A DNA stretch of 19,161 nucleotides from an uncultured Gammaproteobacteria bacterium (lineage in GTDB: Bacteria > Patescibacteriota > Patescibacteriia > Patescibacteriales > JAGXOH01): NCBI GenBank assembly GCA_964585585.1, contig CAZPEL010000015.1, forward strand, positions 4,423-23,583, given 5' to 3'. The position numbers and the translations under genes are program-made. Below the pieces are notes generated by a model. The model saw only the letters and a list, made by a program, of their open reading frames with translations. It was not told the DNA's origin and searched no databases. This document shows positions 268 to 19,161 of the stretch, piece after piece. Position 1 is the first letter of the stretch; each line of letters opens with the position of its first letter.

Positions 268-1911
268 TTATAGTCCTCTCGCCTCTCCCTGGTCTCCTGT
301 CTCCACTTTTTTCCAGGGGAGCCGTTTGGAAAAAGAGTTCCAAATATCAAAAAATTCCTCGGAACCGGCAACAAAACACACTATAATATAAATAATTATT
401 CCGGACAAGCCCGCCACGGCTCCTTGAGTAAAAACACCCCAAAATTTAGTCATGTCAATAAGGGGCCAGACCGCCACTTTCATCATTTGCACCATTAAAC
501 CGCAGGCAATAGCGGCCAAGGTGAACTTGGAAGTGGATATGAGTATTTTGCTTTCCTGCATATCCCCGAAATTGATATGTAAAGCTAACCACAAAAGAAT
601 AAAATTAACTATTTGGGCCATAGAAAAACCCAAGGCCAAACCGGGAACGCCAAAAATGCGGGAAAAATACCAACTCAAGATCAAATTGCAACCGGCCGCT
701 ACCACTCCTATAAAAAAGGGGGTTCGGGAATTCTGCTTGGCATAAAAAACCCTTATCAAAAGGGGGATGGTAGCTTGGGCGAACAAGCCAATAGCAAAAA
801 ATCCCAAGGTGTTCATGGTTAAAACAGTGTCAGTCCAACCAAATTTGCCACTTCCCAAAATCACTCGGATCAGCTGAGCCCTTAAAGTAATAAGCAAAAC
901 CGTGGCCGGAAGCACAAAAAACAAGATCTTTCTAAAAGTGGCGGAAAAACTCCGGATCAACTTTTTATTATCAGAGGCCACCTTGGATAAGGTGGGAAAA
1001 GCGGCTATAGCAAAGGAAATACCGAAAATACCTACCGGAAAGGCCTGGAGATTGTTGGCGAAATTAAAAACAGCCAAGGATCCGCCGGCCAAACTGGAGG
1101 CCAAGATGGTTATTACCAATAAATTCAACTGGGACACCCCCAGGGTCATGGTCCGGGGTACCATCATTCTCCCTATCTTTCTCATATTCTGGTCCCGCAA
1201 ATTTATGATCGGCCTGTACTTAAAGCCCAAACTGACCACCAAGGGGAGCTGGACCAACATATGCATAAAAGCTCCCAGGGCCACTCCCCAGGCCAGGCCA
1301 TGGATCCCCCAATAGGGGACAAAAAATAAGGCCCCAATAATAATGCCGATGTTATACATTATGGGAGCCAAAGAGTAAACAAAAAATCTCTTAAAGGACT
1401 GTAAAATCCCGCCTAAAATACTGGAGAGACCCAGAAAAATGGGAGACAAAAACATAATCCGGGTCATCTCGGCCGTTAAACTTTGTTTTTCCGGGCTGAA
1501 ACCGGGGGCCACCAATTTGACCAAGAAAGGCGAAAATAGAATGCCCAAGGCGGAAATAAAGACCAAAAATATCATTAGAGTATTCAAAATATTGTTGGCC
1601 AAATACCAGGCCTGTTTATTCGGGGAAGTATCAAAACCGGTGGTATGTTGACACTGAGAATCCTTGATCAAACAGGTAAAGATCGGGATAAAACCGGCGG
1701 AAAGAGCCCCTAACACCAACAAATTGAATATCAGATCCGGCACTCGAAAAGCGGCGTAATAAACATCCAGGATGTTGCCGGCCCCGAATTCACCGGCCAA
1801 AATCCTGTCCCGGAAAATACCCAAAAGTCGGCTAAGCAAAGAAGAAAAGGCCACTAAAGTGGCCGCTATGGTGATGCTATCTATTTTTCGAGAAAAAATC
1901 TTTTTGATCAT
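268..1911 (-). CDS. murJ: Lipid II flippase MurJ/MviN (peptidoglycan precursor flippase), multi-TM
   Basis: The ORF translation has the conserved MurJ N-terminus (SRLLGIFRDRILAGEFGAGNILDVYYAAFRVPDLIFNL) and is about 545 aa and polytopic. The ORF-track start is a GTG inside the repeat element, so I trimmed the start to the ATG at 1909-1911 (MIKKIFS...). Confidence 0.85.
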   Translation of the reverse strand: MIKKIFSRKIDSITIAATLVAFSSLLSRLLGIFRDRILAGEFGAGNILDVYYAAFRVPDLIFNLLVLGALSAGFIPIFTCLIKDSQCQHTTGFDTSPNKQAWYLANNILNTLMIFLVFISALGILFSPFLVKLVAPGFSPEKQSLTAEMTRIMFLSPIFLGLSSILGGILQSFKRFFVYSLAPIMYNIGIIIGALFFVPYWGIHGLAWGVALGAFMHMLVQLPLVVSLGFKYRPIINLRDQNMRKIGRMMVPRTMTLGVSQLNLLVITILASSLAGGSLAVFNFANNLQAFPVGIFGISFAIAAFPTLSKVASDNKKLIRSFSATFRKILFFVLPATVLLITLRAQLIRVILGSGKFGWTDTVLTMNTLGFFAIGLFAQATIPLLIRVFYAKQNSRTPFFIGVVAAGCNLILSWYFSRIFGVPGLALGFSMAQIVNFILLWLALHINFGDMQESKILISTSKFTLAAIACGLMVQMMKVAVWPLIDMTKFWGVFTQGAVAGLSGIIIYIIVCFVAGSEEFFDIWNSFSKRLPWKKVETGDQGEARGL

Positions 1912-1922
1912 GATAATTTTCA

Positions 1923-2020
1923 GATATTGGATACTTGTTATTAGATATTGGACACAGTGGGATGATCTACCAATCACTTTTGGCTATTGACTAATTACCA
2001 ATATCAAATATCCAATATCA
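1923..2020. repeat. Heptamer-repeat palindromic intergenic element, copy 1: (GATATTG-like)x4-5, 47-bp unique core, (CAATATC-like)x3; its right end overlaps the last codons and stop of the ACD gene
   Basis: Read directly: gatattggatacttgttattagatattgg ... accaatatcaaatatccaatatc. Arms are reverse-complementary. The element starts 11 bp from the murJ ATG. Confidence 0.7.
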
Positions 2021-4078: not shown

Positions 4079-4120
4079 AAACAAGTAAATGAATTATTGA
4101 TGAAAAACTCGAAAAAACGA

Positions 4121-5224: not shown

Positions 5225-5416
5225 TTATTTCCGTGGATCAGGGGATTTATCAACCACTAATATAACTATACCAATAAAAACCCAGCCAATCAATATCCAA
5301 TTAATATTAATATAGGCCAAAACCAACCGAGGCCAAACAAGCTCCAGGCCGGTAAAAATAACTAAAGCGCCGGTCAGGACATAGAATGTTTCTTTTAAAA
5401 AAGAAATATAAAACAT
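5225..5416 (-). CDS. Small two-TM membrane protein, about 63 aa (possible NfeD-like/partner of the SPFH protein)
   Basis: Hydrophobic ORF 16 bp upstream of the SPFH gene. The track ORF starts at a TTG inside repeat copy 2. ATG alternatives are at 5458 and 5416; 5416 was chosen because it lies outside the repeat. Confidence 0.4.
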   Translation of the reverse strand: MFYISFLKETFYVLTGALVIFTGLELVWPRLVLAYININWILIGWVFIGIVILVVDKSPDPRK

Positions 5417-5426
5417 ATAACAATTC

Positions 5427-5496
5427 GATATTGGATACCGGATATTGGAAATGGTCATAGTGGCGCCAATATCCAATATCTAATATCCAATATCCC
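5427..5496. repeat. Heptamer-repeat palindromic intergenic element, copy 2: GATATTG GATACCG GATATTG GAAATGG, 18-bp core, CCAATATC CAATATC TAATATC CAATATC
   Basis: Read directly. It starts 1 nt after the stop (5498-5500) of the 475-aa gene and ends 10 bp before the 5416 ATG. Confidence 0.7.
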
Positions 5497-5497
5497 A

Positions 5498-6925
5498 CTA
5501 ATTTATAAATTTTTCCCACAAAGTTTTTCCTTTTAATTTTATCTCTATTCTCTCTATCGCAACAGAATCCTCCGTCCCGTCCTCCGCTTTCAATCCGGGT
5601 ACAGAGATCATGAAATTATACTTATTATCTTCCTTATATCCGGCGGATAGATCAAATCCGGCAGTGGCTTTATATCGGCCTTTGTCCTTTTGGGGCGAGG
5701 TATACCGGGCCAAAACATATTTTATGTCCTGTTTATCCGGGTCAAAACCGGTATCCACCCGGGGAATAGAGGGATCCAACAAAGAATCCCGGCTAAAACT
5801 AAAAACTCCGTTGCTAAAAAGATCTATTCCGCCTTTCTCTAAATTTAACCGACATGGAGAACAATCCACTAAAGACAAGGCAAACCTTTTATAAGTTTGA
5901 TCGATATCCAATTTCTTTTCTTGGTCCTTATTTTTTACCTCCAAGGTCTGTAGATAAAGCGGGTCCAAAACTTTAGCGCTTAATTCATCGCCGGTTGTAT
6001 AAATCTTTTGTTCAAACTTCCCGGTGGTAGAGGCTAAACTGAGCTGGTTTATAAAAGCTAACTTTTTTTGGCCGGTCTTGATCTTTTCGGTTATTATGTC
6101 ATTTCCCGCTCTCACCTCGATCTTGTATACCCCCTCCGGCAACCCCGAGGCCTGTAAATTAACAGACCTGCTTGGCCGAGATCCGGCGACCCCCTTGCTC
6201 AGGCCGTCATCGGATAAATGGCGGGAATCGATTATTTTATCCCGAAAATACAAGCTTATATCCACCGGATCCTCGCCCTGCTCTTGGTTGATGTCCCGAA
6301 AAGAAAAATCAAAATCAAGTTTTTCCTGCTTGATATAAGTATAAAATTGATAATCCCCTCTCAAGTCCGTGTCCCAAACTTGCTCGGAGCTGGTAGCGGA
6401 ATAATTCGGGAGTACAAATTTATTGTCCAGATCATAATTATAGACCGCTATCTCTTGCACAGAAGGCGGATCACTTAAAAATTCATCTATGGAGGAGAAT
6501 TCTTTCTTTTTTTGCAAAAGCATCAGGTCGTCCCGGACCAAGGTGGACCAAGCTTGACTTAAGTCATCCAGGATCTTGTTCTGCAAGGGCTTGGTCTTAT
6601 ACCTCCACAACTGGCCGTCCACCAACAGACCGGCCTCTATTATGGGGAAATCCCGATTCTTATAAAAAAGGATTATCTCCGCAGTTTGAAAATTTCTGGG
6701 AGTCCGTAAAGAAAAATACACCGGATTGCCGATTATCCTTTTGCCCTTCTCCTTGACCCGGGTTTCCGGACTGATCCTGCCTATAAAATCATTCCTTTTC
6801 TCCAAATTTGTGCTGTAAGTGATCTCTCCGGAGGGAATCACCCCCCGCCACAAAAGAAAAAGCACTACCAGGCCCAATAAAGACCATAAAATAATCCTTA
6901 ACTTTTTTATGGGAAAATTTAACAT
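5498..6925 (-). CDS. Hypothetical secreted or membrane-anchored protein (N-terminal signal-anchor, 475 aa), no recognisable domain
   Basis: Long clean ORF starting with an ATG. The N-terminus LRIILWSLLGLVVLFLLW is TM/signal-like; the rest is hydrophilic. Confidence 0.6.
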   Translation of the reverse strand: MLNFPIKKLRIILWSLLGLVVLFLLWRGVIPSGEITYSTNLEKRNDFIGRISPETRVKEKGKRIIGNPVYFSLRTPRNFQTAEIILFYKNRDFPIIEAGLLVDGQLWRYKTKPLQNKILDDLSQAWSTLVRDDLMLLQKKKEFSSIDEFLSDPPSVQEIAVYNYDLDNKFVLPNYSATSSEQVWDTDLRGDYQFYTYIKQEKLDFDFSFRDINQEQGEDPVDISLYFRDKIIDSRHLSDDGLSKGVAGSRPSRSVNLQASGLPEGVYKIEVRAGNDIITEKIKTGQKKLAFINQLSLASTTGKFEQKIYTTGDELSAKVLDPLYLQTLEVKNKDQEKKLDIDQTYKRFALSLVDCSPCRLNLEKGGIDLFSNGVFSFSRDSLLDPSIPRVDTGFDPDKQDIKYVLARYTSPQKDKGRYKATAGFDLSAGYKEDNKYNFMISVPGLKAEDGTEDSVAIERIEIKLKGKTLWEKFIN

Positions 6926-8125: not shown

Positions 8126-11100
8126 CTAATAATTCGCCCTCTTTTTCTTTCCCTTATAACCTGTTCCGGCCGGGATCAAACAACCGATGATAACATTTTC
8201 CTTCAGGCCTTCCAGATAATCTATCTTGCCGCTCAAACCGGCATCAACCAAAACCCTGGCTGTTTCTTGAAAGGAAGCGGAAGATAAGAAGCTGTCCGTG
8301 GTCAAGGAGGCCTTGGTTATACCGGACAACAATTGGGTGGCCTTAGCCGAATTCTTGCTCTTTTTGTTGGCCCGGTCCAAAACCGCTTGTTCCACCACTT
8401 CTCCGGACAATAACTCGGTATCGCCGGGATCGGCAACCAGGTACCTGGAGAACATTTGCCTGGCGATTATTTCCACATGCTTATCATTCAAGGGTTGTCC
8501 CTGGGAGGAATAAACATATTGGATCTCTTTGAGAATATATTTTTGAACCTCTAATCTGTTTCGGAGTCTATATAATTGATGCAGGTCAAAACTTCCTTCA
8601 GTTAATTTTTGACCTACTTCCACCTTATCCCCGTCATTGACCAGGATATCGGTTCCCTTGGTAACGGTTATCTCCTCCACTTTTTCAGACTCGCTGTTGA
8701 CCTTGATAAACTTGTCCTTAACCTCTATCGTTCCGCTCTTTTTGGCTTTGATCTTATCTCCTCCTACGGAAAACAATTCTGTACCCTTGGAAACCTTGTC
8801 CTCGTCCTTGACCGAAACTTCCACTTTAGGGTCGGCTTGGGAATTATCTTTGGCCTTTAATTTGGCCTTCTCGATCGCATCGGAAAAATAAAACTTTTCC
8901 GATTCCGTACCCTTGTAAAACAGCTTCAAAAGTTTGGTCTGCGGGTTATCCACGGTTACCTCTTTACCGGACTCATCCTTGATCACCTTTTTGCCCATCT
9001 CTACCTTGACCTTGGCGTCAACATCGGCCATGATGGCCTTCTTTTTGGGCGGCTTGGCCTCAAAGATCTCTTCCACCCTGGGTAAACCTTGGGTAATATC
9101 CTCCCCGCCGGCCACACCACCGGCGTGAAAGGTTCTCATAGTAAGCTGGGTACCGGGTTCTCCAATGGATTGGGCGGCCACAATACCAACCGGGGTGCCC
9201 ACTTCCACCGGTCTGTTGTTACCCAGGTCATAACCATAACATTTACGACAGACCCCTCGGCCCACCTGACAGCTCAACAGGGACCTGATAGTGGCTTCCT
9301 CTATTTCTTCCTCATTCTTTTGCCACTCCTCTATCATACTGGTGGTAATGATCTCTCCTTTTTTAAGCAAGGTCTTTCCTTGGGAATTCTTAAGATCCTT
9401 AGCCAAATATCTTCCCATAATTCTTTTGTAAAAATCCTCTCCGGTCTCCTCGCTTTCTTTTTTGGTTATGGCCACACCCTCGGTGTCTCCGCAGTCCTCT
9501 TCAGTTACTATCACATCCTGAGATACATCGACCAGACGACGGGTTAAATAACCGGCGTTAGCGGTACGAAGAGCGGTGTCAGAAAGACCCTTACGCACAC
9601 CGTGGGTGGAGATAAAGTATTCCAAAACTCCAAACCCTTTCTTGAAGTTCCCTTTGACCGGCAATTCGATAATATCACCGGCCGGGGATATCACCAAACC
9701 TTTCATCCCCAAGATCTGGGTCAACTGTCCCCAGCTACCCCTGGCGCCGGATTCCACCATGGAATAAACCGGACTATCAGAGGTCAGGCCTTCTTGAATA
9801 ATATCGGTAACCCTTTCCTTGGCATTGCTCCAGAGTTCGATGATCTTGCTGGATCTTTCACTTTCGGTCAACAAGCCTTCGGCGAACTGCTCCTCCACTT
9901 CTTCCACACTATCATTGGTCTCTTGGATCAATTTATCCTTTTCCTCAAAATCCACCAAGTCTCCCAGGCCAAAGGACCAACCACTCTTGGTTATTATCTC
10001 AAAAGTTTTATTCTTTAACTTATCAATGAATTCCACTGTCTCCTCTTCTTCATAAAATCGTAAACAATCGCGGACCAAGCCCTTGAGCTCTCCTTTCTTG
10101 ATCACCCTGTTAACAAATCTCAATTTCTCCGGCAAGATCTCATTAAAAATAACTCTTCCCACGGTGGTCCTGACCAATCCGCTATCCTCGGATAATCTTA
10201 CTCTTATGGGCTCTTGCATGCCAATATAGTAATTCTCATAGGCCAGTTTGGCCTCATAGGTATCGGTAAAGGCCTTCAGGTCCTTATCCTCTTTTTGTTC
10301 ATCCTCATCTTTGATATTGGTAACATAATAAGCTCCCCAGACAATGTCCTGATTAGGGGCCACGATCGGTTCTCCGGTGGCCGGCTTCAAGAGATTCCGG
10401 GTAGAAAGGATCAAGTTCTCCGCCTCCCCCCGGGCCTCCTTGGTCAAGGGCACATGAACGGCCATTTGGTCCCCGTCAAAGTCGGCGTTAAAGGCCGGAC
10501 AAACCAAAGGATGGATCTGAATGGCCTTACCCTCGATCAAAATAGGTTTAAAGGCCTGGATGCCCAGCCGATGCAAGGTCGGGGCCCGGTTCAGCATGAC
10601 ATAGGAATCGCTGACCACTTGTTCCAAAAGGTCCCAAACCTCATCCGCGCCGCTTTCAATAAAACGGGAAGCGCTCTTAACATTATGGACTATTTCGTTT
10701 TGGATCAATTTACTGATCACAAAGGGTTTAAAAAGCTCCAAAGCCATGGTCTTGGGCAGACCGCATTGGTCCAAATTCAATTTGGGATTGACCACGATCA
10801 CGCTTCGACCGGAATAATCGGTTCTTTTACCCAAAAGGTTCTGCCTGAATCTTCCTTGTTTCCCCTTTAGGGAATCAGCTAAGGATTTCAATTGCCTTTT
10901 TTGTCCGGTTGAAGCCACTACGGTCTTGCTTTGGCGGGCGGAGTTGTCTATTAAAGCATCCACGGCCTCCTGAAGCATTCTTTTTTCGTTCCGACAAATG
11001 ACCTCCGGAGCATTAAGCTCTATTAATTGTTTCAAACGATTATTTCTATTAATAACCCTTCGATAGAGGTCGTTCAGGTCGCTGGCCGCGAACCTGCCCC

Positions 11101-12091
11101 CGTCCAGGGCCACCATGGGACGCAGATCCGGCGGGATCACCGGAACATGGGTCATTATCATCCATTCCGGCCGAATATCATTGGAATACAAACTCTTAAA
11201 GACCCTTAATCTCTTCATTATCTTTTCCCTCTTGGAATCAATAGCGTCCTTGAGTTGTTTTTCCAGGTCCTCAATGGTCTGGCCCAGATCTATTTTTTCC
11301 AAAACGGTCCGAATGGCCTCGGCTCCGATGCCGGCGTCAAAAATATGGCCGTATTTTAAACTCAAATTCTGGTAGGACTCCTCGGAGATGACCAACAAGG
11401 GTTTTAGTTCCTTTAATTCCTTCAGGGATTCGTTAAAGGTTTTTTGCAGTTCCTCTAATTTCTGCTCCTTGGATTCGGTTAATTTGTCTACCTCTTTTTG
11501 AACCTCTTCCTCGGCCTGTTTGTTGGTCTTACCCTCGTCCAATAATTGGTTTTTCTTGGCCTTGGCATCCTTGATCTGTTTGTTAAAATCCTTGTTTATC
11601 CCCCTTCTCTTTTCCTTATATTCACTCTTGATCTGTTCAATAGTGGACTCCTTTAACTCCTCATCCACCTCGGTCACGATAAAACTGGCAAAATAGATCA
11701 CCCTTTCCAGGGAATGCATGCCCAAGTCCAAAAGCAGACCCAATTTGGAGGAAAGTCCCCGCAAAAACCAAATATGGGAACAAGGGGTTTCCAGGGCGAT
11801 GTGCCCCATTCTCTCTCTTCGGACAATACTTCGGGTAACCTCCACGCCGCATTTGTCACAAACGATCCCCTTGTAGCGGATCTTTTTGTACTTACCGCAA
11901 TAACATTGCCAATCCTTGGTGGGGCCGAAGATCTTTTCGCAAAACAAGCCGTCCTTTTCCGGTTTTTGAGTCCTATAATTAATGGTTTCCGGCTTCGCCA
12001 CTTCCCCGTGGGACCAGGCCAGAACATCATCCGGCGAGGCCAACCTTAATCTAATGGCGTCAAAGTCGGTTGTTTTTATTGGATTGATCAT
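8126..12091 (-). CDS. rpoC: DNA-directed RNA polymerase subunit beta' (RpoC), 1321 aa with lineage-specific insertions
   Basis: Zn-binding N-terminus CYCGKYKKIRYKGIVCDKCGVEV; NADFDGDQM catalytic motif; trigger-loop/bridge regions. Two long K/E-rich insertions (after the Zn finger; in the trigger-loop region). Confidence 0.97.
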   Translation of the reverse strand: MINPIKTTDFDAIRLRLASPDDVLAWSHGEVAKPETINYRTQKPEKDGLFCEKIFGPTKDWQCYCGKYKKIRYKGIVCDKCGVEVTRSIVRRERMGHIALETPCSHIWFLRGLSSKLGLLLDLGMHSLERVIYFASFIVTEVDEELKESTIEQIKSEYKEKRRGINKDFNKQIKDAKAKKNQLLDEGKTNKQAEEEVQKEVDKLTESKEQKLEELQKTFNESLKELKELKPLLVISEESYQNLSLKYGHIFDAGIGAEAIRTVLEKIDLGQTIEDLEKQLKDAIDSKREKIMKRLRVFKSLYSNDIRPEWMIMTHVPVIPPDLRPMVALDGGRFAASDLNDLYRRVINRNNRLKQLIELNAPEVICRNEKRMLQEAVDALIDNSARQSKTVVASTGQKRQLKSLADSLKGKQGRFRQNLLGKRTDYSGRSVIVVNPKLNLDQCGLPKTMALELFKPFVISKLIQNEIVHNVKSASRFIESGADEVWDLLEQVVSDSYVMLNRAPTLHRLGIQAFKPILIEGKAIQIHPLVCPAFNADFDGDQMAVHVPLTKEARGEAENLILSTRNLLKPATGEPIVAPNQDIVWGAYYVTNIKDEDEQKEDKDLKAFTDTYEAKLAYENYYIGMQEPIRVRLSEDSGLVRTTVGRVIFNEILPEKLRFVNRVIKKGELKGLVRDCLRFYEEEETVEFIDKLKNKTFEIITKSGWSFGLGDLVDFEEKDKLIQETNDSVEEVEEQFAEGLLTESERSSKIIELWSNAKERVTDIIQEGLTSDSPVYSMVESGARGSWGQLTQILGMKGLVISPAGDIIELPVKGNFKKGFGVLEYFISTHGVRKGLSDTALRTANAGYLTRRLVDVSQDVIVTEEDCGDTEGVAITKKESEETGEDFYKRIMGRYLAKDLKNSQGKTLLKKGEIITTSMIEEWQKNEEEIEEATIRSLLSCQVGRGVCRKCYGYDLGNNRPVEVGTPVGIVAAQSIGEPGTQLTMRTFHAGGVAGGEDITQGLPRVEEIFEAKPPKKKAIMADVDAKVKVEMGKKVIKDESGKEVTVDNPQTKLLKLFYKGTESEKFYFSDAIEKAKLKAKDNSQADPKVEVSVKDEDKVSKGTELFSVGGDKIKAKKSGTIEVKDKFIKVNSESEKVEEITVTKGTDILVNDGDKVEVGQKLTEGSFDLHQLYRLRNRLEVQKYILKEIQYVYSSQGQPLNDKHVEIIARQMFSRYLVADPGDTELLSGEVVEQAVLDRANKKSKNSAKATQLLSGITKASLTTDSFLSSASFQETARVLVDAGLSGKIDYLEGLKENVIIGCLIPAGTGYKGKKKRANY

Positions 12092-12113: not shown

Positions 12114-15100
12114 TTATGAATTTGATTCGGATCCCTCTTCCTTTTCCTCTTGTTTCTCTTCCGACTTTTCCTCTGCTCGGACTTCTTTCGAGCTTGTTTC
12201 TTGTTCCTGCGGCTCTCCTCCCAATAATTCCACATTCATACCCAAACCTTTTAATTCCCGGGTCAACACATTAAAGGATTCCGGAACATTGAGTTTGGTT
12301 ATCTCCTCGCCCTTGATAATGGATTCGTAAGCGCTGCTTCGGCCGGGCACATCGTCCGACTTAATAGTCAATATCTCCTGCAGGGTGTGGGCGGCTCCGT
12401 AACCCTCCAGGGCCCAAACCTCCATCTCTCCGAACCTCTGGCCTCCGAACTGGGCCTTACCTCCCAGGGGCTGCTGGGTGATCAAGGAATAAGGACCGAT
12501 GGATCTTTGGTGCATCTTGTCCTCGACCATGTGGTTTAATTTCAACATATATTTATAACCGACCACTACTCGATTGTCATAGGGACGGCCGGATTTACCG
12601 TCATACAAAGTAACCTTGCCATCCTCGGGTAGTCCGGCTCGGGACAGTTCTTCCTTGATCTTTTTCTCCGGAATTCCGTTCAGGGGCGGTGTAGCCACTT
12701 TATAACCCAATTTCTCCGCGGCAAAGCCCAAATGGGTCTCCAGGATCTGACCCAAATTCATACGGGAAATAACACCTAAAGGAGATAAAATTATATCCAC
12801 CGGAGTGCCGTCCTCTAAGTAGGGCATATCCTCTTCCGGCACCACTTTGGAGATAACACCCTTGTTTCCGTGTCTGCCGGCCACCTTGTCACCCACCTGT
12901 ATCTTCCTGAGGTTGGCCACTGATATCTGAATGGATTTCAAAACTCCGGCCGGCAATTTATCTCCGTTTTCCCGGGAAAATATCTTGATATCCACTACCT
13001 TGCCGTGCTCTCCGTGTTCCAAATACAGAGAAGAATCCCGGACATCCTTGGCTTTTTCGCCGAATATGGCCCGGAGCAACTTCTCTTCCGCGGACAATTC
13101 GGTCTCTCCCTTGGGGGTGATCTTACCTACCAGGATATCACCGGAAGAAACCTCGGCTCCGATCCTGATTATTCCGTCCTCATCCAAATTCTTTAATTTT
13201 TCCTCGCTAATATTGGGTATATCATTGGTTATCTCTTCCGGGCCCAACTTAGTATCCCGAACATCCACGGTGTAATTTTCTATATGAATTGAGGAATAAA
13301 CCTCGTTCTTAACCAATCTATCGGAAATTATAATAGCATCCTCGTAATTGTATCCTTCCCAGGTCATAAAAGCGACCAGAGCGTTCTTACCCAAAGCCAA
13401 TTCCCCGTTTTCGATACAAGGGCCGTCGGTCAAGGCATCGCCCTTCTTGATCTTATCTCCCACATTGACCACCGGTCTTTGGTTCATACAAGTGGAGGAA
13501 TTGGAACGGGCGAATTTACAAAGATAATAATCCTTTACCTCCCCCTTCTTATTCTTGACCGCGATATTGGAAGCATCTGATTTGATCACTTCCCCATCCT
13601 CTTCGGCCAATATCATATGGCCGGAATCCTGGGCCGCTCGGCCCTCGACTCCGGTTCCCACAATCGGGGAATCACTGGTTACCAAAGGCACGGCCTGCCG
13701 TTGCATGTTGGTCCCCATCAAGGTTCTTTGCCCGTCATCGTGTTCCATAAAAGGGATCAGAGAGGTGGCGATGGAAATGATCTGGTTAGCGGCCACTCCG
13801 ACGTAATCAATATAACAGACATCCATAGTGGTGGGTTGACCGAACTTTCTGACCTCGTGATTGTCCACCATGAAATAACCGTTATTGTCCACCGGCACAT
13901 TGGAAGAAGCTGTAATTTGCTTTTCCTCTTCAAAAGCGTCCAAAAGGACTATTTCCTGGGTTACCCTGGGTGTGATCGGTATCAAAACCCTGTTATCCAC
14001 TTTATCCTTAAGTTCTTTGATGGTCTTTTTATCCAATTTTTTTCCGGCCTTGGCGATTATCTTGCCGGTCTTTTTGTCCGGCACATCCTCATACAAAACA
14101 CCGTCGCCGGCCTCGTCCAGTTTTCTGACCTCCTTAACATCCTCTCTTAGTACCTCGCCCTCCAGGGCCGGATCGCTTACTTTAAGGTCATGCAAAACCT
14201 TTCTATAAGAAGTTTGTAAAAATCCATAACTATTGATCCGGGCATAACTGGCCAGATGTCCGACCAAACCGATATTAGGACCTTCCGGGGTGGCAATGGG
14301 ACAAATTCGGCCGTAATGGGTGGTATGTACGTCACGCACTTCAAAACCGGCCCTTTCCCGGGTCAATCCTCCGGGGCCCATGGCGGATAACCTTCTTTTG
14401 TGTTCCAGTTCCGCCAAAGGATTGGTCTGGTCCATGAACTGGGATAATTGCGAAGACATGAAAAACTCCCGGACCACGCTTATAACCGGCCGGGCATTGA
14501 TCAATTTATTCGGAGTTAAGGTGGTGAAATCGGCTGTACTCATTCGATCCCGGATGATCCTCTGCATTCGGGCCAACCCCACTCGAAATCGATTCTGGAT
14601 CAATTCTCCGATGGCTCTGACTCTTCGATTTCCCAAATGATCAATGTCATCCTCCGGGTCTCCGGTAATATTCAATCGGATCACCTCCTTGATAATGGAG
14701 ATCAGGTCTTGTTTTCGCAAAACCCGGTTCTCCTTGGAGTTGTCTATATCAAAACCGAATCTTCGGTTTAGTTTATACCTACCTACTCGACCGAAGTCAT
14801 AACGATCGAATCGGAAAAACATGGAGTGGATCAATTGCCTGGCGTTGTCGGTAGCGGCGAAATCTCCGGGCCGGATCTTTCGATAAACCTCTTTCAATCC
14901 TTCTTCCTCGTTAGTGGCGGCGTCCTTTTTGATAGTGGATTCAATGTAGCTTAATTCTCCTTTTTTACCGGCCTCTTCGTTGACTATGTCCACATCTTTG
15001 AACAAATTTATGATCTCTTCGTCCGTGGAATAACCGAAAGCCCTGAGCAAAGAGGTAATGGCCACCTTTCTTTTTCTGTCTATTCTAACCCAGACCACTT

Positions 15101-15629
15101 TATTGACATCGGTCTCTATTTCCAACCAAGCACCCCGGTTGGGGATAACCTTGGCTCCGTAATATTTCTTGCCCTTGATGTAGTTGGCGTTGAAGATCAC
15201 ACCCGCGCTTCTGATAAGCTGGGATACGATAGCTCTTTCAATGCCGTTGATAATAAAAGTTCCGTTCTGGGTCATTAAAGGAAAATCTCCTAAAAAAACC
15301 TCTTGTTCCGTGTTCTCTTTTTGTCTCTTGTTGATAAGCTCCACTTTAGCCCGCAAAGGAGCTTCATAAGTAATGTTTTTTTCCCGACTTTCCCTTTCAT
15401 TGAATTTGGGCTCGTCCAAATAATAATCCTTGAAATAGAGTTCCAGATCGCGCCCGATAAAATCGGTTATAGGGGAAATCTCTTCAAACAACTCTTTTAA
15501 TCCTTCCCGAATAAACCAATCATAAGAATCCTTTTGAACCTCGATCAGGTCCGGCATGGGTATGGTCTCCTTGAATTCCGTAAAGAACTGACGCGAGGTA
15601 GTGGGTGAGGTGGCTTTTTTATTGGTCAT
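12114..15629 (-). CDS. rpoB: DNA-directed RNA polymerase subunit beta (RpoB), 1171 aa with an acidic C-terminal tail
   Basis: Conserved RpoB blocks throughout (PDLIEVQKDSYDWF, GRHGNKGVISKV, and others). ATG at 15627-15629. Confidence 0.97.
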   Translation of the reverse strand: MTNKKATSPTTSRQFFTEFKETIPMPDLIEVQKDSYDWFIREGLKELFEEISPITDFIGRDLELYFKDYYLDEPKFNERESREKNITYEAPLRAKVELINKRQKENTEQEVFLGDFPLMTQNGTFIINGIERAIVSQLIRSAGVIFNANYIKGKKYYGAKVIPNRGAWLEIETDVNKVVWVRIDRKRKVAITSLLRAFGYSTDEEIINLFKDVDIVNEEAGKKGELSYIESTIKKDAATNEEEGLKEVYRKIRPGDFAATDNARQLIHSMFFRFDRYDFGRVGRYKLNRRFGFDIDNSKENRVLRKQDLISIIKEVIRLNITGDPEDDIDHLGNRRVRAIGELIQNRFRVGLARMQRIIRDRMSTADFTTLTPNKLINARPVISVVREFFMSSQLSQFMDQTNPLAELEHKRRLSAMGPGGLTRERAGFEVRDVHTTHYGRICPIATPEGPNIGLVGHLASYARINSYGFLQTSYRKVLHDLKVSDPALEGEVLREDVKEVRKLDEAGDGVLYEDVPDKKTGKIIAKAGKKLDKKTIKELKDKVDNRVLIPITPRVTQEIVLLDAFEEEKQITASSNVPVDNNGYFMVDNHEVRKFGQPTTMDVCYIDYVGVAANQIISIATSLIPFMEHDDGQRTLMGTNMQRQAVPLVTSDSPIVGTGVEGRAAQDSGHMILAEEDGEVIKSDASNIAVKNKKGEVKDYYLCKFARSNSSTCMNQRPVVNVGDKIKKGDALTDGPCIENGELALGKNALVAFMTWEGYNYEDAIIISDRLVKNEVYSSIHIENYTVDVRDTKLGPEEITNDIPNISEEKLKNLDEDGIIRIGAEVSSGDILVGKITPKGETELSAEEKLLRAIFGEKAKDVRDSSLYLEHGEHGKVVDIKIFSRENGDKLPAGVLKSIQISVANLRKIQVGDKVAGRHGNKGVISKVVPEEDMPYLEDGTPVDIILSPLGVISRMNLGQILETHLGFAAEKLGYKVATPPLNGIPEKKIKEELSRAGLPEDGKVTLYDGKSGRPYDNRVVVGYKYMLKLNHMVEDKMHQRSIGPYSLITQQPLGGKAQFGGQRFGEMEVWALEGYGAAHTLQEILTIKSDDVPGRSSAYESIIKGEEITKLNVPESFNVLTRELKGLGMNVELLGGEPQEQETSSKEVRAEEKSEEKQEEKEEGSESNS

Positions 15630-16062
15630 ATTTTTAAATCAATTTAAAAACAAACGATTAATTAAATATTTGAAATAAAGATAAAGGTTTCGGAGAACTT
15701 GGGAAAGGCGGAAAAACAAAAAACAACAAAAAAATCTCAATACCTGATTCAATGGCTTGAGTTTTTTAGTGGAAGATATTTATCTATTTCTTTTTACTCA
15801 CTTGAAAAAAATTTAGTTTTTAAATCGGGCTAAAATTTTTGTTCAACTGTTATCCACTTGTTGTTAAAATGATTCTTTATATTAACAATAATTATTGGAT
15901 ATGTCAAGAATAAAGAATAAAGATCTTTTTTTAAAAATTTTTAGCTTATTTTAGATAAACTAAACCTGATCTTAATTTTTTAACCACAACTTATCCACAA
16001 CAAAAAAATCGAGATCCGATCTCTAATCTCTTTAACTCATACTTTTAACGAGTCTTGCTCCA
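15630..16062 (-). promoter_or_regulatory. 430-bp AT-rich non-coding region upstream of rpoB (promoter and long leader for rpoBC)
   Basis: No ORF of 60 aa or more; very AT-rich; lies between the Mur ligase stop and the rpoB start. Confidence 0.5.
15980..15999 (+). promoter_or_regulatory. Tandem DnaA-box-like 9-mers: TTAACCACA (8/9) then TTATCCACA (9/9, consensus DnaA box); a third, TTATCCACT (8/9), is at 15850-15858
   Basis: Read directly. TTATCCACA is the canonical DnaA box. All three are in the same orientation within about 150 bp. Confidence 0.35.
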
Positions 16063-17463
16063 TTAATGATCGATTTGTTGTAACTCTTCCTTTACTACTT
16101 GTCTGTCGTCCCAGGGGACTTTTCCCCCTTTGGCCGTGCAAATAGATTGCTCACTTCCTTTACCGGTAATAATAATTATATCATCTTTTTCCGCCAGCTG
16201 CAAAGCTTTTCTTATGGCCTCCCGCCTATCCATTATCTTGAACAGATCATGCTCCTTGTGTTTGCCGGCATTCTCGGCTCCGGTGGCCACTTGATCTATG
16301 ATAAGTTTGGGGTCTTCATCATAAGGGTCCTCATTGGTAACAATGACCACATCCGCTTTTTCTCCGGCTATTCGACCCAATTGGGGCCGACGGGATACAT
16401 CTCGGCCACCTCCGGCCGAACCCAGGACATGGACTATTCTCTCGTGGGGGATCAGGTCCAAAGTGGAGTACAGCTTTTCCATAGCATGGGGCTCAAAGGC
16501 ATAATCGACTATTATCCCGAAGTCCTGACCTTGTTCTATTTTTTCCAATCTTCCGGCTATCCCCTTGATCTTTCGCAGTCCTTTTTTAATGGCCTCTATC
16601 TCTATTCCCTGGGACAAACAAACACAAACGGCGTTCATAGCATTTTGGACATTAAATTCCCCCAAAATGGGCAACCTGACCTCCTGGCCCTCGACCAAGA
16701 AATTATAGCCCCGGTCCTGATACCGGATCTTTTTATAATCAATGATCCGAACATGAGGAGACGGCTCTTCCGCCCCGCCTTTATCATATTGATAAGTAAG
16801 CTTTTCCTCGGCCCAAAACTCGGAAAAATAATCGGAATGTTCATCATCCCCGTTAACAATAATGGTCTTTTTCACCCGGTTCAGGTCTATCTTTTTTATC
16901 TCCGAGGATGTCTTTCTAAGCTTCCGATCTTCATCCACATATTTAGTTTTGCCTCTTTTTAAGTGCCGAAACAACTCACCCTTGGCCCGCTTATAATTCT
17001 CAAAACCGCCATGGGACTCGATATGTTCCGGATACAGACCGGTAAAAACCAAAATGTCATAATTTATAAACCTGTGCCGGAACTGCCGCATTCCCTCGCT
17101 GGTACTTTCCACTATGGCATACTGACAACCGTTGTTCACCATATCCTTTAGGATCTTTTGGGTAAAAAACCTGCCCACCATGGTCATCTTCTTGTCATTC
17201 AACCACTCTTTTTCCCCATTCCCAAACAAAGTAGTGGAGGTATAACCCACTTTAAAACCGGCCTCTTCCAGGGTTTTGGCTATCAGATACACGCTGGAGG
17301 TCTTGCCGGTGGTTCCCGTGACGCCGATCACGATCAACTTTTCACTTGGACGCCCGGAAACCAAAGCGGCCAACCAGCTCAAGAAAAAATGATAAGCCGG
17401 CTGTAAATACCGGAATATCTTAGTGGGGATCAATCTCTTTATTTTAGCCAGTAGTTTGTCCAT
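16063..17463 (-). CDS. Mur ligase family protein, MurE-like (UDP-N-acetylmuramoyl-tripeptide synthetase-like); lacks the usual about 100-aa N-terminal domain and has a short hydrophobic N-terminus
   Basis: P-loop GVTGTTGKTS; central-domain motifs ESTSEG, DILVFTGLYPEHIESHGGFENYKRAKGELF, VDYAFEPHAMEKL (DYAHNP-like) and a C-terminal DPYDEDP...DRREAI...ITGKGSE. This is a Mur ligase fold. The specific substrate cannot be assigned from sequence alone (MurE, MurT and CapB-like remain possible). Confidence 0.75.
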   Translation of the reverse strand: MDKLLAKIKRLIPTKIFRYLQPAYHFFLSWLAALVSGRPSEKLIVIGVTGTTGKTSSVYLIAKTLEEAGFKVGYTSTTLFGNGEKEWLNDKKMTMVGRFFTQKILKDMVNNGCQYAIVESTSEGMRQFRHRFINYDILVFTGLYPEHIESHGGFENYKRAKGELFRHLKRGKTKYVDEDRKLRKTSSEIKKIDLNRVKKTIIVNGDDEHSDYFSEFWAEEKLTYQYDKGGAEEPSPHVRIIDYKKIRYQDRGYNFLVEGQEVRLPILGEFNVQNAMNAVCVCLSQGIEIEAIKKGLRKIKGIAGRLEKIEQGQDFGIIVDYAFEPHAMEKLYSTLDLIPHERIVHVLGSAGGGRDVSRRPQLGRIAGEKADVVIVTNEDPYDEDPKLIIDQVATGAENAGKHKEHDLFKIMDRREAIRKALQLAEKDDIIIITGKGSEQSICTAKGGKVPWDDRQVVKEELQQIDH

Positions 17464-17477
17464 AATACATAAAATTC

Positions 17478-17602
17478 AAAAATCAAAATGCAAAACTCAA
17501 AATGACAGAGAAAAGATCAAAATTAATCAATTTTTTGTTTTGATCTGTAATTTTGAGTTTCCTGCCTTGCCGGCAGGCAGATGAGATTTGATTTTTGCAT
17601 TT
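17478..17602. other. Highly structured spacer between femAB-like stop and Mur ligase start: 9-bp stem AGATCAAAA/TTTTGATCT, GC hairpin CCTGCC-ttgcc-GGCAGG, 10-bp long-range inverted repeat AAATGCAAAA/TTTTGCATTT, followed on the sense strand by a U-rich tract
   Basis: Read directly. On the minus (sense) strand the AGAUCAAAA hairpin is followed by UUUCUCUGUCAUUUUGAGUUUUGCAUUUUGAUUUUUG. This could be a terminator, an attenuator or a leader. Confidence 0.35.
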
Positions 17603-18583
17603 CTAGATTTTTCTCCTAACATACCTAAGCATCTTATAAACATTGTACCATTTTTTAGCAAAAACCAAATCCCGAGTTCCGGGGTAATTCATCTCCATTC
17701 CGCCAAAACCTTTTTTGAATCTGGTTACTCCGGGCCATTTATCAGGATCGATCCCATAAAAATCATAATATCGGGACCCTCTGTTTCGGGCCTCTTGAAT
17801 GGCGCTCCATTGCAAGGCATAAGGAGCCATTACCTTTCTATGCTCATACGAAGAGGCCCCGTGCATATACCAAGCCACCTTACCGAAAAAAGCGAATAAA
17901 CCGGCGGCTACAACTTCTCCTCTGTATTCCGCCAGTTTTAATTTTATCATATCACCGCCCTGTTCCAATATTCCTTGATAATAGGACCTGGGGTGGGTGC
18001 GGAAATTATCCCTCTGTCCGGTCTGCTCCATTAACCGCCAAAATTGCTCAAAATCATCCTTGGTGCCATCTCTCGTTGTTACCCCTTTTTTAAAAGCTAA
18101 GCGAATATTATATCTGGTTTTCTGATGCATCTGTTTCATCAGATCCTCTTCCGGTCTCCCCAGGTCCAAAACCAAAGTTTTGCCGGGCTGGATCTCTATA
18201 GTGGGCTCTACTTTCCATTCCAGGTCCGGAGGAAGGTCAAAATTGGACTCCAAGCGAAGAAATATTGCTTTTTCTTTTTGGGCCAGATCTTCGATCTTTT
18301 TTAACAATCCGATCAAAATCTCTTCTTTGTTGCTAACATTCCTATCCAAAACCGGCCCGCGGGGGCAATAAAAATAACCCCTTTTCAGGGGCGTGGGTTT
18401 TAGGACTAAACCGGCACCGGCCACCAATTCCCCTGTTTCGCTCTCTACTCCTAAACGAAAAACTTTCCCGGACTGCTCGGCCTGAAAATCCAACCACCTA
18501 CTCGATTGCAAAAATTCGGGAAAACGGCGATTCTTTAAAAAATCATCCCACCTATTACTATCTTGTATCTCTACTATTTTCAT
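17603..18583 (-). CDS. FemAB/FemX-family aminoacyltransferase (peptidoglycan interpeptide-bridge formation-like, tRNA-dependent GNAT-fold)
   Basis: N-terminus W..FL....FLQSSRW..F....G...R.G is typical of FemX/FmhB proteins; about 326 aa. Adjacent to a Mur ligase. Confidence 0.65.
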   Translation of the reverse strand: MKIVEIQDSNRWDDFLKNRRFPEFLQSSRWLDFQAEQSGKVFRLGVESETGELVAGAGLVLKPTPLKRGYFYCPRGPVLDRNVSNKEEILIGLLKKIEDLAQKEKAIFLRLESNFDLPPDLEWKVEPTIEIQPGKTLVLDLGRPEEDLMKQMHQKTRYNIRLAFKKGVTTRDGTKDDFEQFWRLMEQTGQRDNFRTHPRSYYQGILEQGGDMIKLKLAEYRGEVVAAGLFAFFGKVAWYMHGASSYEHRKVMAPYALQWSAIQEARNRGSRYYDFYGIDPDKWPGVTRFKKGFGGMEMNYPGTRDLVFAKKWYNVYKMLRYVRRKI

Positions 18584-18603
18584 ATGATATAACTTTTAAA
18601 AAA

Positions 18604-18672
18604 ATATTGGATATTGGATATTTGATATTGGTCACAATATGATTAATATCCAGTATCCAATATCTAATATCA
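18604..18672. repeat. Heptamer-repeat palindromic intergenic element, copy 3: ATATTGG ATATTGG ATATTTG ATATTGG, 15-bp core, CCAGTATC CAATATC TAATATC
   Basis: Read directly. It ends 1 nt before the ruvA stop (18674-18676) and starts 21 bp after the femAB-like ATG (18581-18583). Confidence 0.7.
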
Positions 18673-18673
18673 A

Positions 18674-19161
18674 CTATTCAATATTCCTCAACGCCTCTCT
18701 TATTCTCTGCCCACTATCCTTGATCTCCGGATCTACTTTCTTTAAGGCCTCCCGGGCCTGGGGCATGGAATAACCCAGGGCCATCAAGGCGTCGATCTCG
18801 TCGCTACTGATCATAGCTCCGTTCGCACCTCCCGAAGATTGCTCGGAACCGGCTGTCGGAGTTAAAACTCCTATCTTATCCCTTAGCTCCACCACTATCC
18901 GGTCGGCTGTTCTCTTTCCTATGCCGGACACCTGAGTTAAAAGCGAGGCATCACCGCGGGAAATGTATTCTCGGAATTCGGCCGCTTCAGCCACAGAAGT
19001 GGCGCTCAAGGCGGACTTGGGTCCGATCCCGGATATGGACAACAAAAGCTCGAATAAATTCAGTTGCTCCCAAGATTCAAAACCATAAAGATCCAGAGCG
19101 TCCTCGCGGACATATTGGTGGGTATAAAGCTCAACCTCTTGACCTTTCTCCGCCCGAGGAA
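18674..19161 (-). CDS. ruvA: Holliday junction branch-migration protein RuvA (5' end beyond the window; at least 162 aa seen)
   Basis: The track ORF starts at a TTG, but the frame stays open to the window edge. Upstream codons read ...GQEVELYTHQYVREDALDLYGFESWEQLNLFELLLSISGIGPK, matching RuvA domain I/II with two HhH motifs (GIGPK, GIGKRTADRIV) and a C-terminal domain III. Confidence 0.8.
   Translation of the reverse strand, partial: PRAEKGQEVELYTHQYVREDALDLYGFESWEQLNLFELLLSISGIGPKSALSATSVAEAAEFREYISRGDASLLTQVSGIGKRTADRIVVELRDKIGVLTPTAGSEQSSGGANGAMISSDEIDALMALGYSMPQAREALKKVDPEIKDSGQRIREALRNIE

What the first reader, a model, noticed from the sequence alone, without database searches (positions are those of the whole stretch)
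16063..18583. N-terminally truncated MurE-like Mur ligase paired with a FemAB-family aminoacyltransferase, next to rpoBC and away from murJ or any dcw context
Two peptide-adding enzyme families sit side by side. One is an ATP-dependent Mur ligase with P-loop GVTGTTGKTS. It lacks the canonical MurE N-terminal UDP-binding domain and has a hydrophobic N-terminus. The other is a tRNA-dependent FemX-like transferase. Together they could specify a non-canonical peptide stem or cross-bridge in peptidoglycan. Alternatively they could build a peptide-decorated polymer unrelated to peptidoglycan, since CapB/PgsB and MurT are Mur-ligase paralogues with short N-termini. A highly structured 139-nt leader separates the two genes. 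They lie directly upstream of the rpoB leader rather than in a cell-wall cluster.
Basis: partly seen in the sequence, partly recalled or inferred. Interest (0 to 1): 0.55.

Follow-up and report, generated by a model that had tools for sequence, protein, structure and literature searches.

The report
Short MurE plus FemX in Patescibacteria
This is most likely the normal cell-wall precursor gene pair of a large group of ultra-small (CPR/Patescibacteria) bacteria, notable because their MurE ligase has lost the domain that normally grips the UDP handle of its substrate.

Summary
Window 16063-17463(-) encodes a 466-aa Mur ligase with only the middle and C-terminal domains. Window 17603-18583(-) encodes a 326-aa FemAB-family protein. 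A 139-nt intergenic region that folds strongly separates them, and rpoB-rpoC follow.

The ligase is MurE-like, not MurT, CapB, FolC or CphA. It passes the NCBIfam murE cutoff, and its best sequence and fold matches are solved MurE structures. It lacks uridine-binding domain 1, and an invariant EDPY replaces the mDAP-binding DNPR motif.

This is not a local oddity. The short form makes up a very large Patescibacteria family, found in at least 596 GTDB species genomes. It sits before rpoB in 46 of 60 testable loci. FemAB lies upstream in 27 of 60.

In relatives the short gene sits next to murD. Other Patescibacteria (Nomurabacteria, Paceibacteria) carry a full-length DNPR MurE instead, and no locus holds both. 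A second, independent domain-1-less MurE occupies the slot where its full-length relatives lie.

Most likely this is the lineage's housekeeping MurE plus a FemX-type branching enzyme. Together they would make a non-mDAP, branched peptidoglycan stem.

I could not check directly that this is the only murE in the genome. I found no paper describing the domain loss.

The parts
16063..17463 (-). Domain-1-less MurE-type ligase, 466 aa. P-loop GVTGTTGKTS at residues 47-56, candidate carbamylated Lys K161, EDPY at residues 378-381 in place of DNPR.
   Evidence: Pfam M and C domains only. TIGR01085 murE scores 326.7 against a cutoff of 257.3, matching model positions 67-471. PDB sequence matches and Foldseek matches are best to MurE. 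Invariant residues come from the 20-sequence alignment.
17603..18583 (-). FemAB/FemX-family aminoacyl-tRNA-dependent transferase homolog, 326 aa, with no coiled-coil insert.
   Evidence: Pfam FemAB 8e-53. PDB best matches are S. aureus FemX (3.5e-24) and Weissella FemX (2.6e-18). The alignment skips the S. aureus coiled-coil region. Patescibacteria homologs are 46-68% identical.
17464..17602 (-). 139-nt femX-murE spacer. It forms a long AT-rich hairpin (arms about 17472-17501 and 17587-17602, inner arms 17493-17560) with an inserted GC hairpin, followed by a U-rich tail just before the murE ATG.
   Evidence: MFE -37.6 kcal/mol, z = -5.3. Inverted repeats I2, I5 and I6. Nearly identical in L090 except for the 21-nt GC hairpin. 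No Rfam family matches.
18584..18673 (-). ruvA-femX spacer. A 31-nt-arm AT-rich palindrome (18604-18670) is followed by a T run. It looks like a terminator.
   Evidence: Inverted repeats I1 and I4. Sequence read. The only Rfam hit is a chance sub-threshold miRNA hairpin.
18674..19161 (-). 3' part of ruvA. The gene runs off the window end.
   Evidence: TIGR00084 ruvA 1.9e-28, model positions 77-202. Relatives have a full 188-213 aa RuvA in the same position.
15630..16062 (-). AT-rich murE-rpoB spacer. It holds a short palindrome plus T7 run just after the murE stop (about 16002-16024) and a promoter-like TTGACA-17-TAATAT site (15907-15879).
   Evidence: Sequence read. Promoter-like site. The palindrome was not called by the terminator scan. 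GC is 0.35.
12114..15629 (-). rpoB, the conserved downstream neighbour of the short murE.
   Evidence: Translation. rpoB lies within 3 kb downstream of the short murE in 46 of 60 GTDB loci.
8126..12091 (-). rpoC.
   Evidence: ORF. tblastn synteny.
268..1977 (-). murJ (lipid II flippase), the other peptidoglycan gene in the window.
   Evidence: Pfam MurJ 1.6e-94.

Best explanation
These are the housekeeping peptidoglycan-precursor genes of one Patescibacteria clade (the named relatives are Falkowbacteria and 'Parcubacteria group').

The 466-aa ligase is the lineage's MurE. [quoted passage not shown] It does this without uridine-binding domain 1. In its place are about 20 residues of basic amphipathic helix, followed by the retained linker helix. 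Substrate binding would rest on domain 2, which holds most of the substrate in solved MurE structures.

The mDAP-binding Asn and Arg of the DNPR motif are replaced (EDPY), while the two acidic residues that hold the side-chain amine are kept (E378, E438). The added residue is therefore most likely a diamino acid without a distal carboxylate, such as L-Lys or L-Orn.

The FemX-like enzyme then transfers an amino acid from an aminoacyl-tRNA onto that free side-chain amine, giving a branched stem or cross-bridge.

Shown here: family assignment, domain loss, motif change, conservation and synteny. Inferred: the substrate, the identity of residue 3, the branch amino acid, and that this is the only MurE in the genome.
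For: 1. Classification. TIGR01085 murE scores above its cutoff, and all other Mur-type families score far lower. The best PDB sequence matches are MurE. The AF2 model (pLDDT 83.6) best matches the MurE structures of M. tuberculosis, S. aureus, E. coli and T. maritima at E about 1e-30.
2. Catalytic residues are invariant across 20 family members: G50 T51 G53 K54 T55, E123, H151, K161, N271, R305, D320, E438.
3. Scale. Thousands of homologs of about 460-480 aa are 60-77% identical. All 150 best representatives of 50%-identity clusters are short, with the M domain starting at residue 41-54 in the six checked. At least 596 GTDB species genomes carry the family motifs.
4. Synteny. rpoB lies downstream in 46 of 60 loci. 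FemAB lies upstream in 27 of 60. The order ruvA-femAB-murE-rpoB-rpoC is seen in L004, L006, L007, L089 and L090.
5. Pathway link. murD lies immediately upstream of the short murE in L079, and near it in L071 and L086. murD is followed by the short murE, directly or a few genes later, in L091, L092, L133, L134, L161 and L167, with murG 5 kb upstream of murD in L091.
6. Complementary distribution. The full-length DNPR MurE occurs in Nomurabacteria and Paceibacteria in murE-murD-murC clusters. No locus contains both forms.
7. Domain 1 is dispensable. A second short MurE of the DNPR type (389-419 aa, 51-59% identical to full-length MurE of L111 and L113) sits upstream of murD, directly before it in L132. 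That is the slot where the full-length gene lies in L107 and L111. No domain-1 coding sequence is found in any of the loci holding a short MurE.
8. From the literature. Domain 1 is the uridine site, while domain 2 binds most of the substrate. The DNPR Asn and Arg bind the mDAP distal carboxylate. S. aureus has DNPA (PMC3829189).
Against: - I could not scan the whole genome of any organism that carries the short MurE, so a second, full-length MurE elsewhere is not excluded.
- The complementary taxon names rest on few named records.
- No enzyme of this family has been assayed, and no domain-1-less MurE is known to work on a UDP substrate.
- EDPY matches neither the mDAP (DNPR) nor the S. aureus Lys (DNPA) motif, so residue 3 is a guess.
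- FemAB is adjacent in only about half of the relatives. In others the upstream gene is FtsK, as identified in L025.
Confidence: 0.77

Rival explanations
1. The short ligase is a MurE-derived paralog with a different acceptor, for example a lipid-linked or non-nucleotide muropeptide, or a recycled or scavenged peptide. In this reading it works beside a canonical full-length MurE encoded elsewhere in the same genome. With FemX it would decorate peptidoglycan rather than build the core stem.
For: - Loss of the uridine-binding domain is what is seen in Mur-ligase relatives that do not use UDP substrates, such as MurT and the cyanophycin synthetase M domain (known biology; weak hits).
- The gene lies outside any mur cluster in the window.
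- Full-length DNPR MurE does exist within Patescibacteria.
- The motif is atypical (EDPY), and there is a basic insertion of about 30 aa at residues 169-200.
Against: - No locus holds both forms, and the named taxa are complementary.
- The short gene lies directly beside murD in several lineages.
- An independent short MurE replaces the full-length one in the same slot.
- Conservation of 60-77% identity across many species fits an essential single-copy enzyme.
- The score is above the murE cutoff, and in L079 above the cutoff of an equivalog-level MurE model (378 against 373).
Confidence: 0.13
2. The pair makes a peptide-decorated polymer unrelated to peptidoglycan, in the manner of CapB/PgsB or cyanophycin synthetase.
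For: Only the general point that Mur-ligase paralogs with short N-termini exist. Cyanophycin synthetase hits are present but weak.
Against: - The best matches in every test are MurE.
- There is no ATP-grasp domain, no CapB-type hit and no DUF1727.
- The gene has murD and murG neighbours in relatives.
- The characterised FemAB relatives it matches best (S. aureus and Weissella FemX) act on peptidoglycan precursors.
Confidence: 0.03
3. The truncation is an artefact: a wrong start codon, a frameshift, a split gene or a decaying pseudogene.
For: None beyond the unusual length.
Against: - A stop codon bounds the ORF upstream.
- The identical protein occurs on three independent contigs.
- Hundreds of orthologs have the same architecture, and the first 25 residues are conserved (F17 Q21 P22 Y24 H25).
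- No domain-1 coding sequence is found next to any short gene.
Confidence: 0.01

Closest known systems
[quoted passage not shown]
   Same: Domains 2 and 3 share the fold and sequence: 25-30% identity and Foldseek E about 1e-30. The P-loop TGTxGKT, the carbamylated-Lys position, the GGxRD motif and the GKGxE glutamate are all present. The score is above the subfamily cutoff. Relatives have murD as a neighbour.
   Different: Domain 1, the uridine site (residues 1-98 in S. aureus MurE), is absent apart from its last helix. About 20 basic amphipathic residues are added at the N-terminus. There is an insertion of about 30 residues at positions 169-200. The DNPR or DNPA specificity motif is replaced by an invariant EDPY. 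The gene lies beside rpoB rather than in a mur or dcw cluster.
FemX of Weissella viridescens (UDP-MurNAc-pentapeptide:L-Ala transferase; 1NE9, 3GKR, 4II9) and FemX of S. aureus (6SNR)
   Same: It is a FemAB-family member (Pfam 8e-53). Its size of about 330 aa, with no coiled-coil insert, is like Weissella FemX. The C-terminal lobe motifs are conserved in the alignment.
   Different: Similarity to characterised enzymes is low: 90 bits against the 500-bit equivalog cutoff. The donor aminoacyl-tRNA is unknown. The acceptor, whether the UDP precursor or lipid II, is also unknown.
MurT (the lipid II isoglutaminyl synthase subunit, which partners GatD)
   Same: It is a Mur-ligase-fold protein that also lacks a UDP-binding N-terminal domain.
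   Different: In MurT, DUF1727 replaces the Mur_ligase_C domain, and MurT pairs with GatD. Here the C domain is canonical, no GatD is present, and the PDB sequence match to MurT is only about 26 bits (E 3.6e-05).
Full-length DNPR-type MurE of Paceibacteria and Nomurabacteria (P0391-P0510), and its own short derivative (L117, L132)
   Same: They come from the same phylum and, by inference, do the same pathway step. The short derivative shows the same kind of domain-1 loss, with a basic amphipathic N-terminus (MKKILKKIWWAIKLFF...).
   Different: They are only 26-33% identical to the window protein. They keep the DNPR motif. They lie in murE-murD(-murC) clusters. No FemAB is seen nearby.

Membership tests
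MurE (TIGR01085 subfamily) | Profile score above the curated whole-protein cutoff | tested here: met
   326.7 bits against a cutoff of 257.3. The equivalog-level models are not reached for the window protein (307.5 against 373) but are reached by the ortholog in L079 (378 against 373).
MurE (TIGR01085 subfamily) | Three-domain architecture with the N-terminal uridine-binding domain 1 | tested here: not met
   The match starts at model position 67. There is no PF01225 hit. The P-loop is at residue 47, against 109-116 in full-length forms. The AF2 model shows only two N-terminal helices. No domain-1 sequence lies nearby.
MurE (TIGR01085 subfamily) | ATP-site residues: the TGTxGKT P-loop and the carbamylated Lys | tested here: met
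   GVTGTTGKTS is at residues 47-56. K161 aligns with the ...AK..LF Lys of M. tuberculosis MurE. All are invariant in 20 orthologs.
MurE (TIGR01085 subfamily) | Residue-3 specificity motif: DNPR for mDAP, DNPA or DDPR for Lys types | tested here: not met
   The aligned motif is EDPY. It is present in 77 of 83 loci and 117 of 120 close homologs. The full-length Patescibacteria family has DNPR in 120 of 120.
MurE (TIGR01085 subfamily) | Genomic association with other mur genes | tested here: inconclusive
   There is none next to it in the window; murJ is 14 kb away. murD is adjacent or near in 9 related loci.
MurE (TIGR01085 subfamily) | Single MurE per genome; UDP-MurNAc-tripeptide synthetase activity | not testable with these tools
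   Whole genomes could not be scanned and no assay is possible. Only the indirect complementarity evidence is available.
FemAB / FemX (PF02388) | Profile score above the gathering cutoff over both lobes | tested here: met
   180.1 bits against a cutoff of 24, in three stretches spanning the protein. The Acetyltransf_6 GNAT domain also hits.
FemAB / FemX (PF02388) | Equivalence to a characterised enzyme (the Weissella FemX equivalog NF047883) | tested here: not met
   90.4 bits against a cutoff of 500.
FemAB / FemX (PF02388) | Aminoacyl-tRNA-dependent transfer to a stem-peptide amine | not testable with these tools
   Inferred from family membership only.
MurT | A DUF1727 C-terminal domain and a GatD partner | tested here: not met
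   The C domain is Mur_ligase_C (1e-24). MurT is not among the 25 best of the 30 NCBIfam families that match at E<=0.01, and the best PDB match to MurT is about 26 bits (E 3.6e-05). There is no GatD in the window.
Cyanophycin synthetase, FolC, CapB/PgsB | Family profile above cutoff; an ATP-grasp domain for CphA | tested here: not met
   CphA scores 106.9 against 850 and FolC 47.8 against 162.65. There is no CapB/PgsB hit and no ATP-grasp domain.

The most novel reading that the evidence does not exclude
Domain 1 was lost in two independent MurE lineages, and also in a MurF (L148). This could mean that many CPR bacteria no longer recognise the uridine of their precursors. The short enzymes might then work on a different form of the acceptor, such as lipid-linked, phospho-MurNAc-peptide or host-derived muropeptide. 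Alternatively they might work only inside a channeling Mur-ligase complex. In either case they would add a third residue that is neither mDAP nor classical Lys. That would amount to a re-wired peptidoglycan precursor pathway across a major bacterial radiation.
Probability: 0.1. Interest if true: 0.75.

Novelty: new variant of a known kind. Interest (0 to 1): 0.4.

Why it matters
MurE fixes the residue that peptidoglycan cross-links depend on, and it is a drug target. All solved MurE enzymes have three domains. Here a very large uncultivated radiation appears to run this essential step without the uridine-binding domain and with an unknown specificity motif (EDPY), often next to a FemX-type branching enzyme. 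If so, Patescibacteria cell walls are probably of a branched, non-mDAP chemotype. That bears on how these epibionts are recognised, lysed or protected. It also offers a natural test of how much domain 1 contributes to Mur-ligase catalysis. For genome annotation, the automatic name '2,6-diaminopimelate ligase' given to these proteins in JGI records is probably wrong about the substrate.

Tried and rejected
- Looked for a known RNA in the structured spacers. Rfam found nothing at gathering thresholds. In E-value mode the only hit was a chance miRNA-hairpin match at 28 bits against a 95-bit threshold.
- Tested the membrane-anchor reading of the N-terminus and rejected it. The hydrophobic stretch aligns to the canonical pre-P-loop helix. 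The new part is amphipathic, with a hydrophobic moment of 0.46-0.72 and mean hydrophobicity near 0.
- Looked for a split-off domain-1 gene beside the short ligases. None was found in the window or in any locus that carries a short MurE. The 82-aa ORF upstream of the L117 gene shows no similarity to MurE domain 1.
- Tried to settle whether this is the only murE in the genome. The tools return at most 10 kb either side of a match, so whole genomes could not be read. No rpoB or FemAB turned up in the murD-centred loci. Comparing contig lengths found no contig shared between the short and full-length lists.
- Literature searches on MurE, FemX, Patescibacteria, CPR, dcw and N-terminal domain found no paper describing the domain loss.
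- Checked the murD upstream contexts for an emptied murE slot. The contexts were too variable to interpret.
Full report
**What is in the window.**
All genes of interest are on the minus strand. The order is: the 3' part of ruvA (18674-19161, running off the window end); a 90-nt spacer; a FemAB-family gene (17603-18583, 326 aa); a 139-nt spacer; a Mur ligase gene (16063-17463, 466 aa); a 433-nt AT-rich spacer; rpoB (12114-15629); and rpoC (8126-12091). Further on are a Maf gene, an SPFH gene, an ADP-forming acyl-CoA synthetase gene and murJ (268-1977). No tRNA gene and no Rfam family is present. The ligase is 100% identical to an NCBI protein from a 'Patescibacteria group bacterium' MAG. The identical protein occurs on three independent contigs, including one in assembly GCA_035312065.1.

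**Checking the observation.**
- *The ligase lacks domain 1.* Pfam finds only Mur_ligase_M and Mur_ligase_C. The ORF is bounded upstream by a stop codon, so no N-terminal domain can be added in frame.
- *How much is missing.* The NCBIfam murE model aligns from its position 67. Solved MurE structures align from their residues 70-123 onward. Roughly 60-80 residues of domain 1 are therefore missing. [quoted passage not shown]
- *The predicted structure.* The AlphaFold model (pLDDT 83.6) has two N-terminal helices (residues 2-11 and 14-36) and then goes straight into the P-loop strand.
- *The 'hydrophobic N-terminus'.* This stretch is the helix that precedes the P-loop in all MurE enzymes (alignment). 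Only the first 20 or so residues are new, and they are basic and amphipathic.
- *The FemAB gene is real.* Pfam scores it at 8e-53. Its best solved relatives are S. aureus FemX and Weissella FemX. It has no coiled-coil insert.
- *The spacer folds.* The 139-nt spacer folds far better than shuffled sequence, with z = -5.3.

**Which Mur ligase is it?**
It is MurE-like by every test.
- TIGR01085 scores 326.7 bits against a cutoff of 257.3. Cyanophycin synthetase scores 107 (cutoff 850), MurC and MurF about 73, MurD 52 and FolC 48. MurT does not appear among the 25 best of the 30 matching families.
- The top PDB sequence matches are all MurE or plant MurE-like proteins.
- The top 34 Foldseek matches are MurE or plant MurE-like (PAP11) chains, at E about 1e-30 for the best, ahead of MurF, pseudomurein ligases, CphA, MurC and MurT.
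- The catalytic residues are invariant in a 20-sequence alignment: the P-loop, the Lys aligned with the carbamylated Lys, GGGRD and GKGSE.
- Two features depart from canonical MurE besides the domain loss. One is a family-specific, basic insertion of about 30 residues (positions 169-200). The other is replacement of the DNPR motif by EDPY.
- In mDAP-adding enzymes, the Asn and Arg of DNPR bind the distal carboxylate of mDAP. The first Asp, together with a Glu of the GKGHE loop, holds the side-chain amine. S. aureus has DNPA (PMC3829189).
- Here the acidic first position (E378) and the loop Glu (E438) are kept, while the Asn and Arg are gone. This argues, by inference, for a diamino acid without a second carboxylate.

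**How common is it?**
Very common.
- The protein search returned the maximum 8000 candidates. The best 120 are 458-505 aa, 61-77% identical, and carry only the M and C domains. Every organism name attached to them is Patescibacteria or an unspecific 'bacterium'.
- An exhaustive HMMER search of 1.84 billion cluster representatives listed 150 best hits at 37-55% identity. Nearly all are 405-480 aa and align from their first residues. The few longer ones have C-terminal fusions or internal insertions, not a domain 1.
- Two family-specific peptide motifs hit at least 600 places in the GTDB species-representative genomes, and 596 of these were confirmed. The named taxa are Falkowbacteria, Parcubacteria, Moraniibacteriota, Buchananbacteria, Uhrbacteria and Doudnabacteria.
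- EDPY is present in 77 of 83 loci, and the P-loop starts at residue 40-65 in nearly all.
- The FemAB homolog is also a large Patescibacteria family, with 3727 hits and the best 120 at 46-68% identity.

**Synteny.**
- Among 60 GTDB loci with enough flanking sequence, rpoB lies within 3 kb downstream of the short murE in 46.
- FemAB lies within 3.5 kb upstream on the same strand in 27, and directly adjacent in 16.
- The full order ruvA-femAB-murE-rpoB-rpoC is seen in relatives whose MurE is 62-77% identical.
- In a second group of relatives a protein of about 750-890 aa, not FemAB, precedes murE-rpoB. In L025 this protein is FtsK.
- The gene pair is therefore a conserved feature of one subclade. 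The murE-rpoB link is broader.

**Is it the real MurE?**
I could not read whole genomes, so I used three indirect tests.
1. *Link to the pathway.* murD, full-length and above its equivalog cutoff, lies immediately upstream of the short murE in L079 and nearby in L071 and L086. In a scan of metagenome contigs centred on Patescibacteria murD, six more loci have murD followed by an EDPY-type short murE. In L091, murG lies 5 kb upstream of murD.
2. *Complementary distribution.* Other murD loci carry a full-length murE with DNPR in murE-murD-murC or murF-murE-murD-murC clusters. That family belongs to Nomurabacteria and Paceibacteria. All 120 best hits have the N-terminal domain, a P-loop at residue 109-116, and DNPR. 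Its contexts contain no short murE and no FemAB. No locus of either set has both forms, and the taxon names of the two sets do not overlap.
3. *Domain 1 is dispensable in this phylum.* L117 and L132 carry a second kind of short MurE (389-419 aa). It is 51-59% identical to the full-length MurE of L111 and L113, keeps the DNPR motif, and scores above the equivalog cutoff (475 against 373). It lies upstream of murD, directly before it in L132, which is the slot where the full-length gene lies in L107 and L111. Its N-terminus is again a basic amphipathic helix.
- No domain-1 coding sequence is detectable in any locus that carries a short form.
- A MurF lacking its N-terminal domain also turned up in L148.

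Together these results make the housekeeping-MurE reading much the most likely. I put it at about 0.77, with 0.13 for a paralog acting on a different acceptor.

**The spacers.**
- The 139-nt femX-murE spacer is a long AT-rich hairpin with an extra GC hairpin inside it, followed by a U-rich tail just before the ATG.
- The closest relative with a comparable spacer (L090) has the same hairpin without the 21-nt GC insert. L089 has a different sequence that also folds. L004 and L006 have unrelated AT-rich palindromes (z = -2.3 and -6.0). In several relatives the two genes nearly abut.
- A similar palindrome plus T run follows ruvA (18604-18670). A short palindrome plus T7 run follows murE.
- These look like AT-rich terminator or processing hairpins between transcription units, not a specific regulatory leader. 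No Rfam family matches. This reading is an inference.

**Mechanism proposed.**
[quoted passage not shown] The short MurE activates the gamma-carboxyl with ATP and adds a non-mDAP diamino acid, most plausibly L-Lys or L-Orn. It would bind the substrate mainly through domain 2. MurF adds D-Ala-D-Ala. The FemX-like enzyme uses an aminoacyl-tRNA to acylate the free side-chain amine. It could act on the nucleotide precursor (the Weissella-type architecture) or on lipid II. MurJ then flips the product. Only the gene content, the motifs and the conservation are shown here. The chemistry is inferred.

**Novelty and score.**
- Both genes already carry routine database names.
- What is not ordinary is the lineage-wide loss of the uridine-binding domain in an essential Mur ligase, the recurrence of that loss, and the EDPY motif. 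I found no paper describing these.
- I rate it a new variant of a known kind, with interest 0.4.

Noticed in passing
L117:2561-3820 and L132:6910-8079: A second, independent domain-1-less MurE. It is 389-419 aa, keeps the DNPR motif, and is 51-59% identical to the full-length MurE of L111 and L113 (the family named Nomurabacteria/Paceibacteria). It lies upstream of murD, directly before it in L132, the slot where the full-length gene lies in L107 and L111.
   Followed up: partly
L148:1990-3297: A MurF-like ligase of 435 aa that also lacks its N-terminal domain (TIGR01143 match starts at model position 63; 253.8 bits, below the 288.6 cutoff). It has a Cys-rich C-terminal tail and sits between murA and murD.
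   Followed up: no
window 12114-15629 (RpoB residues about 486-554): The window's RpoB has a stretch of about 70 aa rich in Lys and Glu. This stretch is missing in the relatives where a protein of about 750-890 aa (FtsK in L025), not FemAB, precedes murE. There, tblastn splits into q1-485 and q555-1160 on contiguous DNA. It looks like a clade-marking insertion.
   Followed up: no
window 18604-18670 and 17472-17602; L006:10979-11063: Long AT-rich, near-perfect palindromes fill the intergenic spacers in this and related genomes. Their sequences are unrelated between species. They may be the terminator or processing signal typical of these genomes.
   Followed up: partly
window 5498-6925 and 5225-5476: Two minus-strand ORFs of 475 aa and 83 aa have no Pfam match.
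   Followed up: no
L010, L018, L021, L025 and other GTDB loci: Many MAG records titled 'uncultured Gammaproteobacteria bacterium (binchicken...)', and two titled Bdellovibrionales or Micavibrio, carry the Patescibacteria-type short murE, most of them with the rpoB-rpoC gene order downstream. The record titles look like placeholder or wrong taxonomy.
   Followed up: no
window 2018-4084: A 688-aa ADP-forming acyl-CoA synthetase (CoA-binding, succinyl-CoA-ligase-like and ATP-grasp domains) lies next to murJ. It fits a fermentative, substrate-level-phosphorylation lifestyle.
   Followed up: no
P0291 and P0303 (representatives of the short MurE family): Some short MurE proteins carry C-terminal fusions: a DUF192 domain in the 613-aa P0291 and an Archease domain in the 589-aa P0303.
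   Followed up: no
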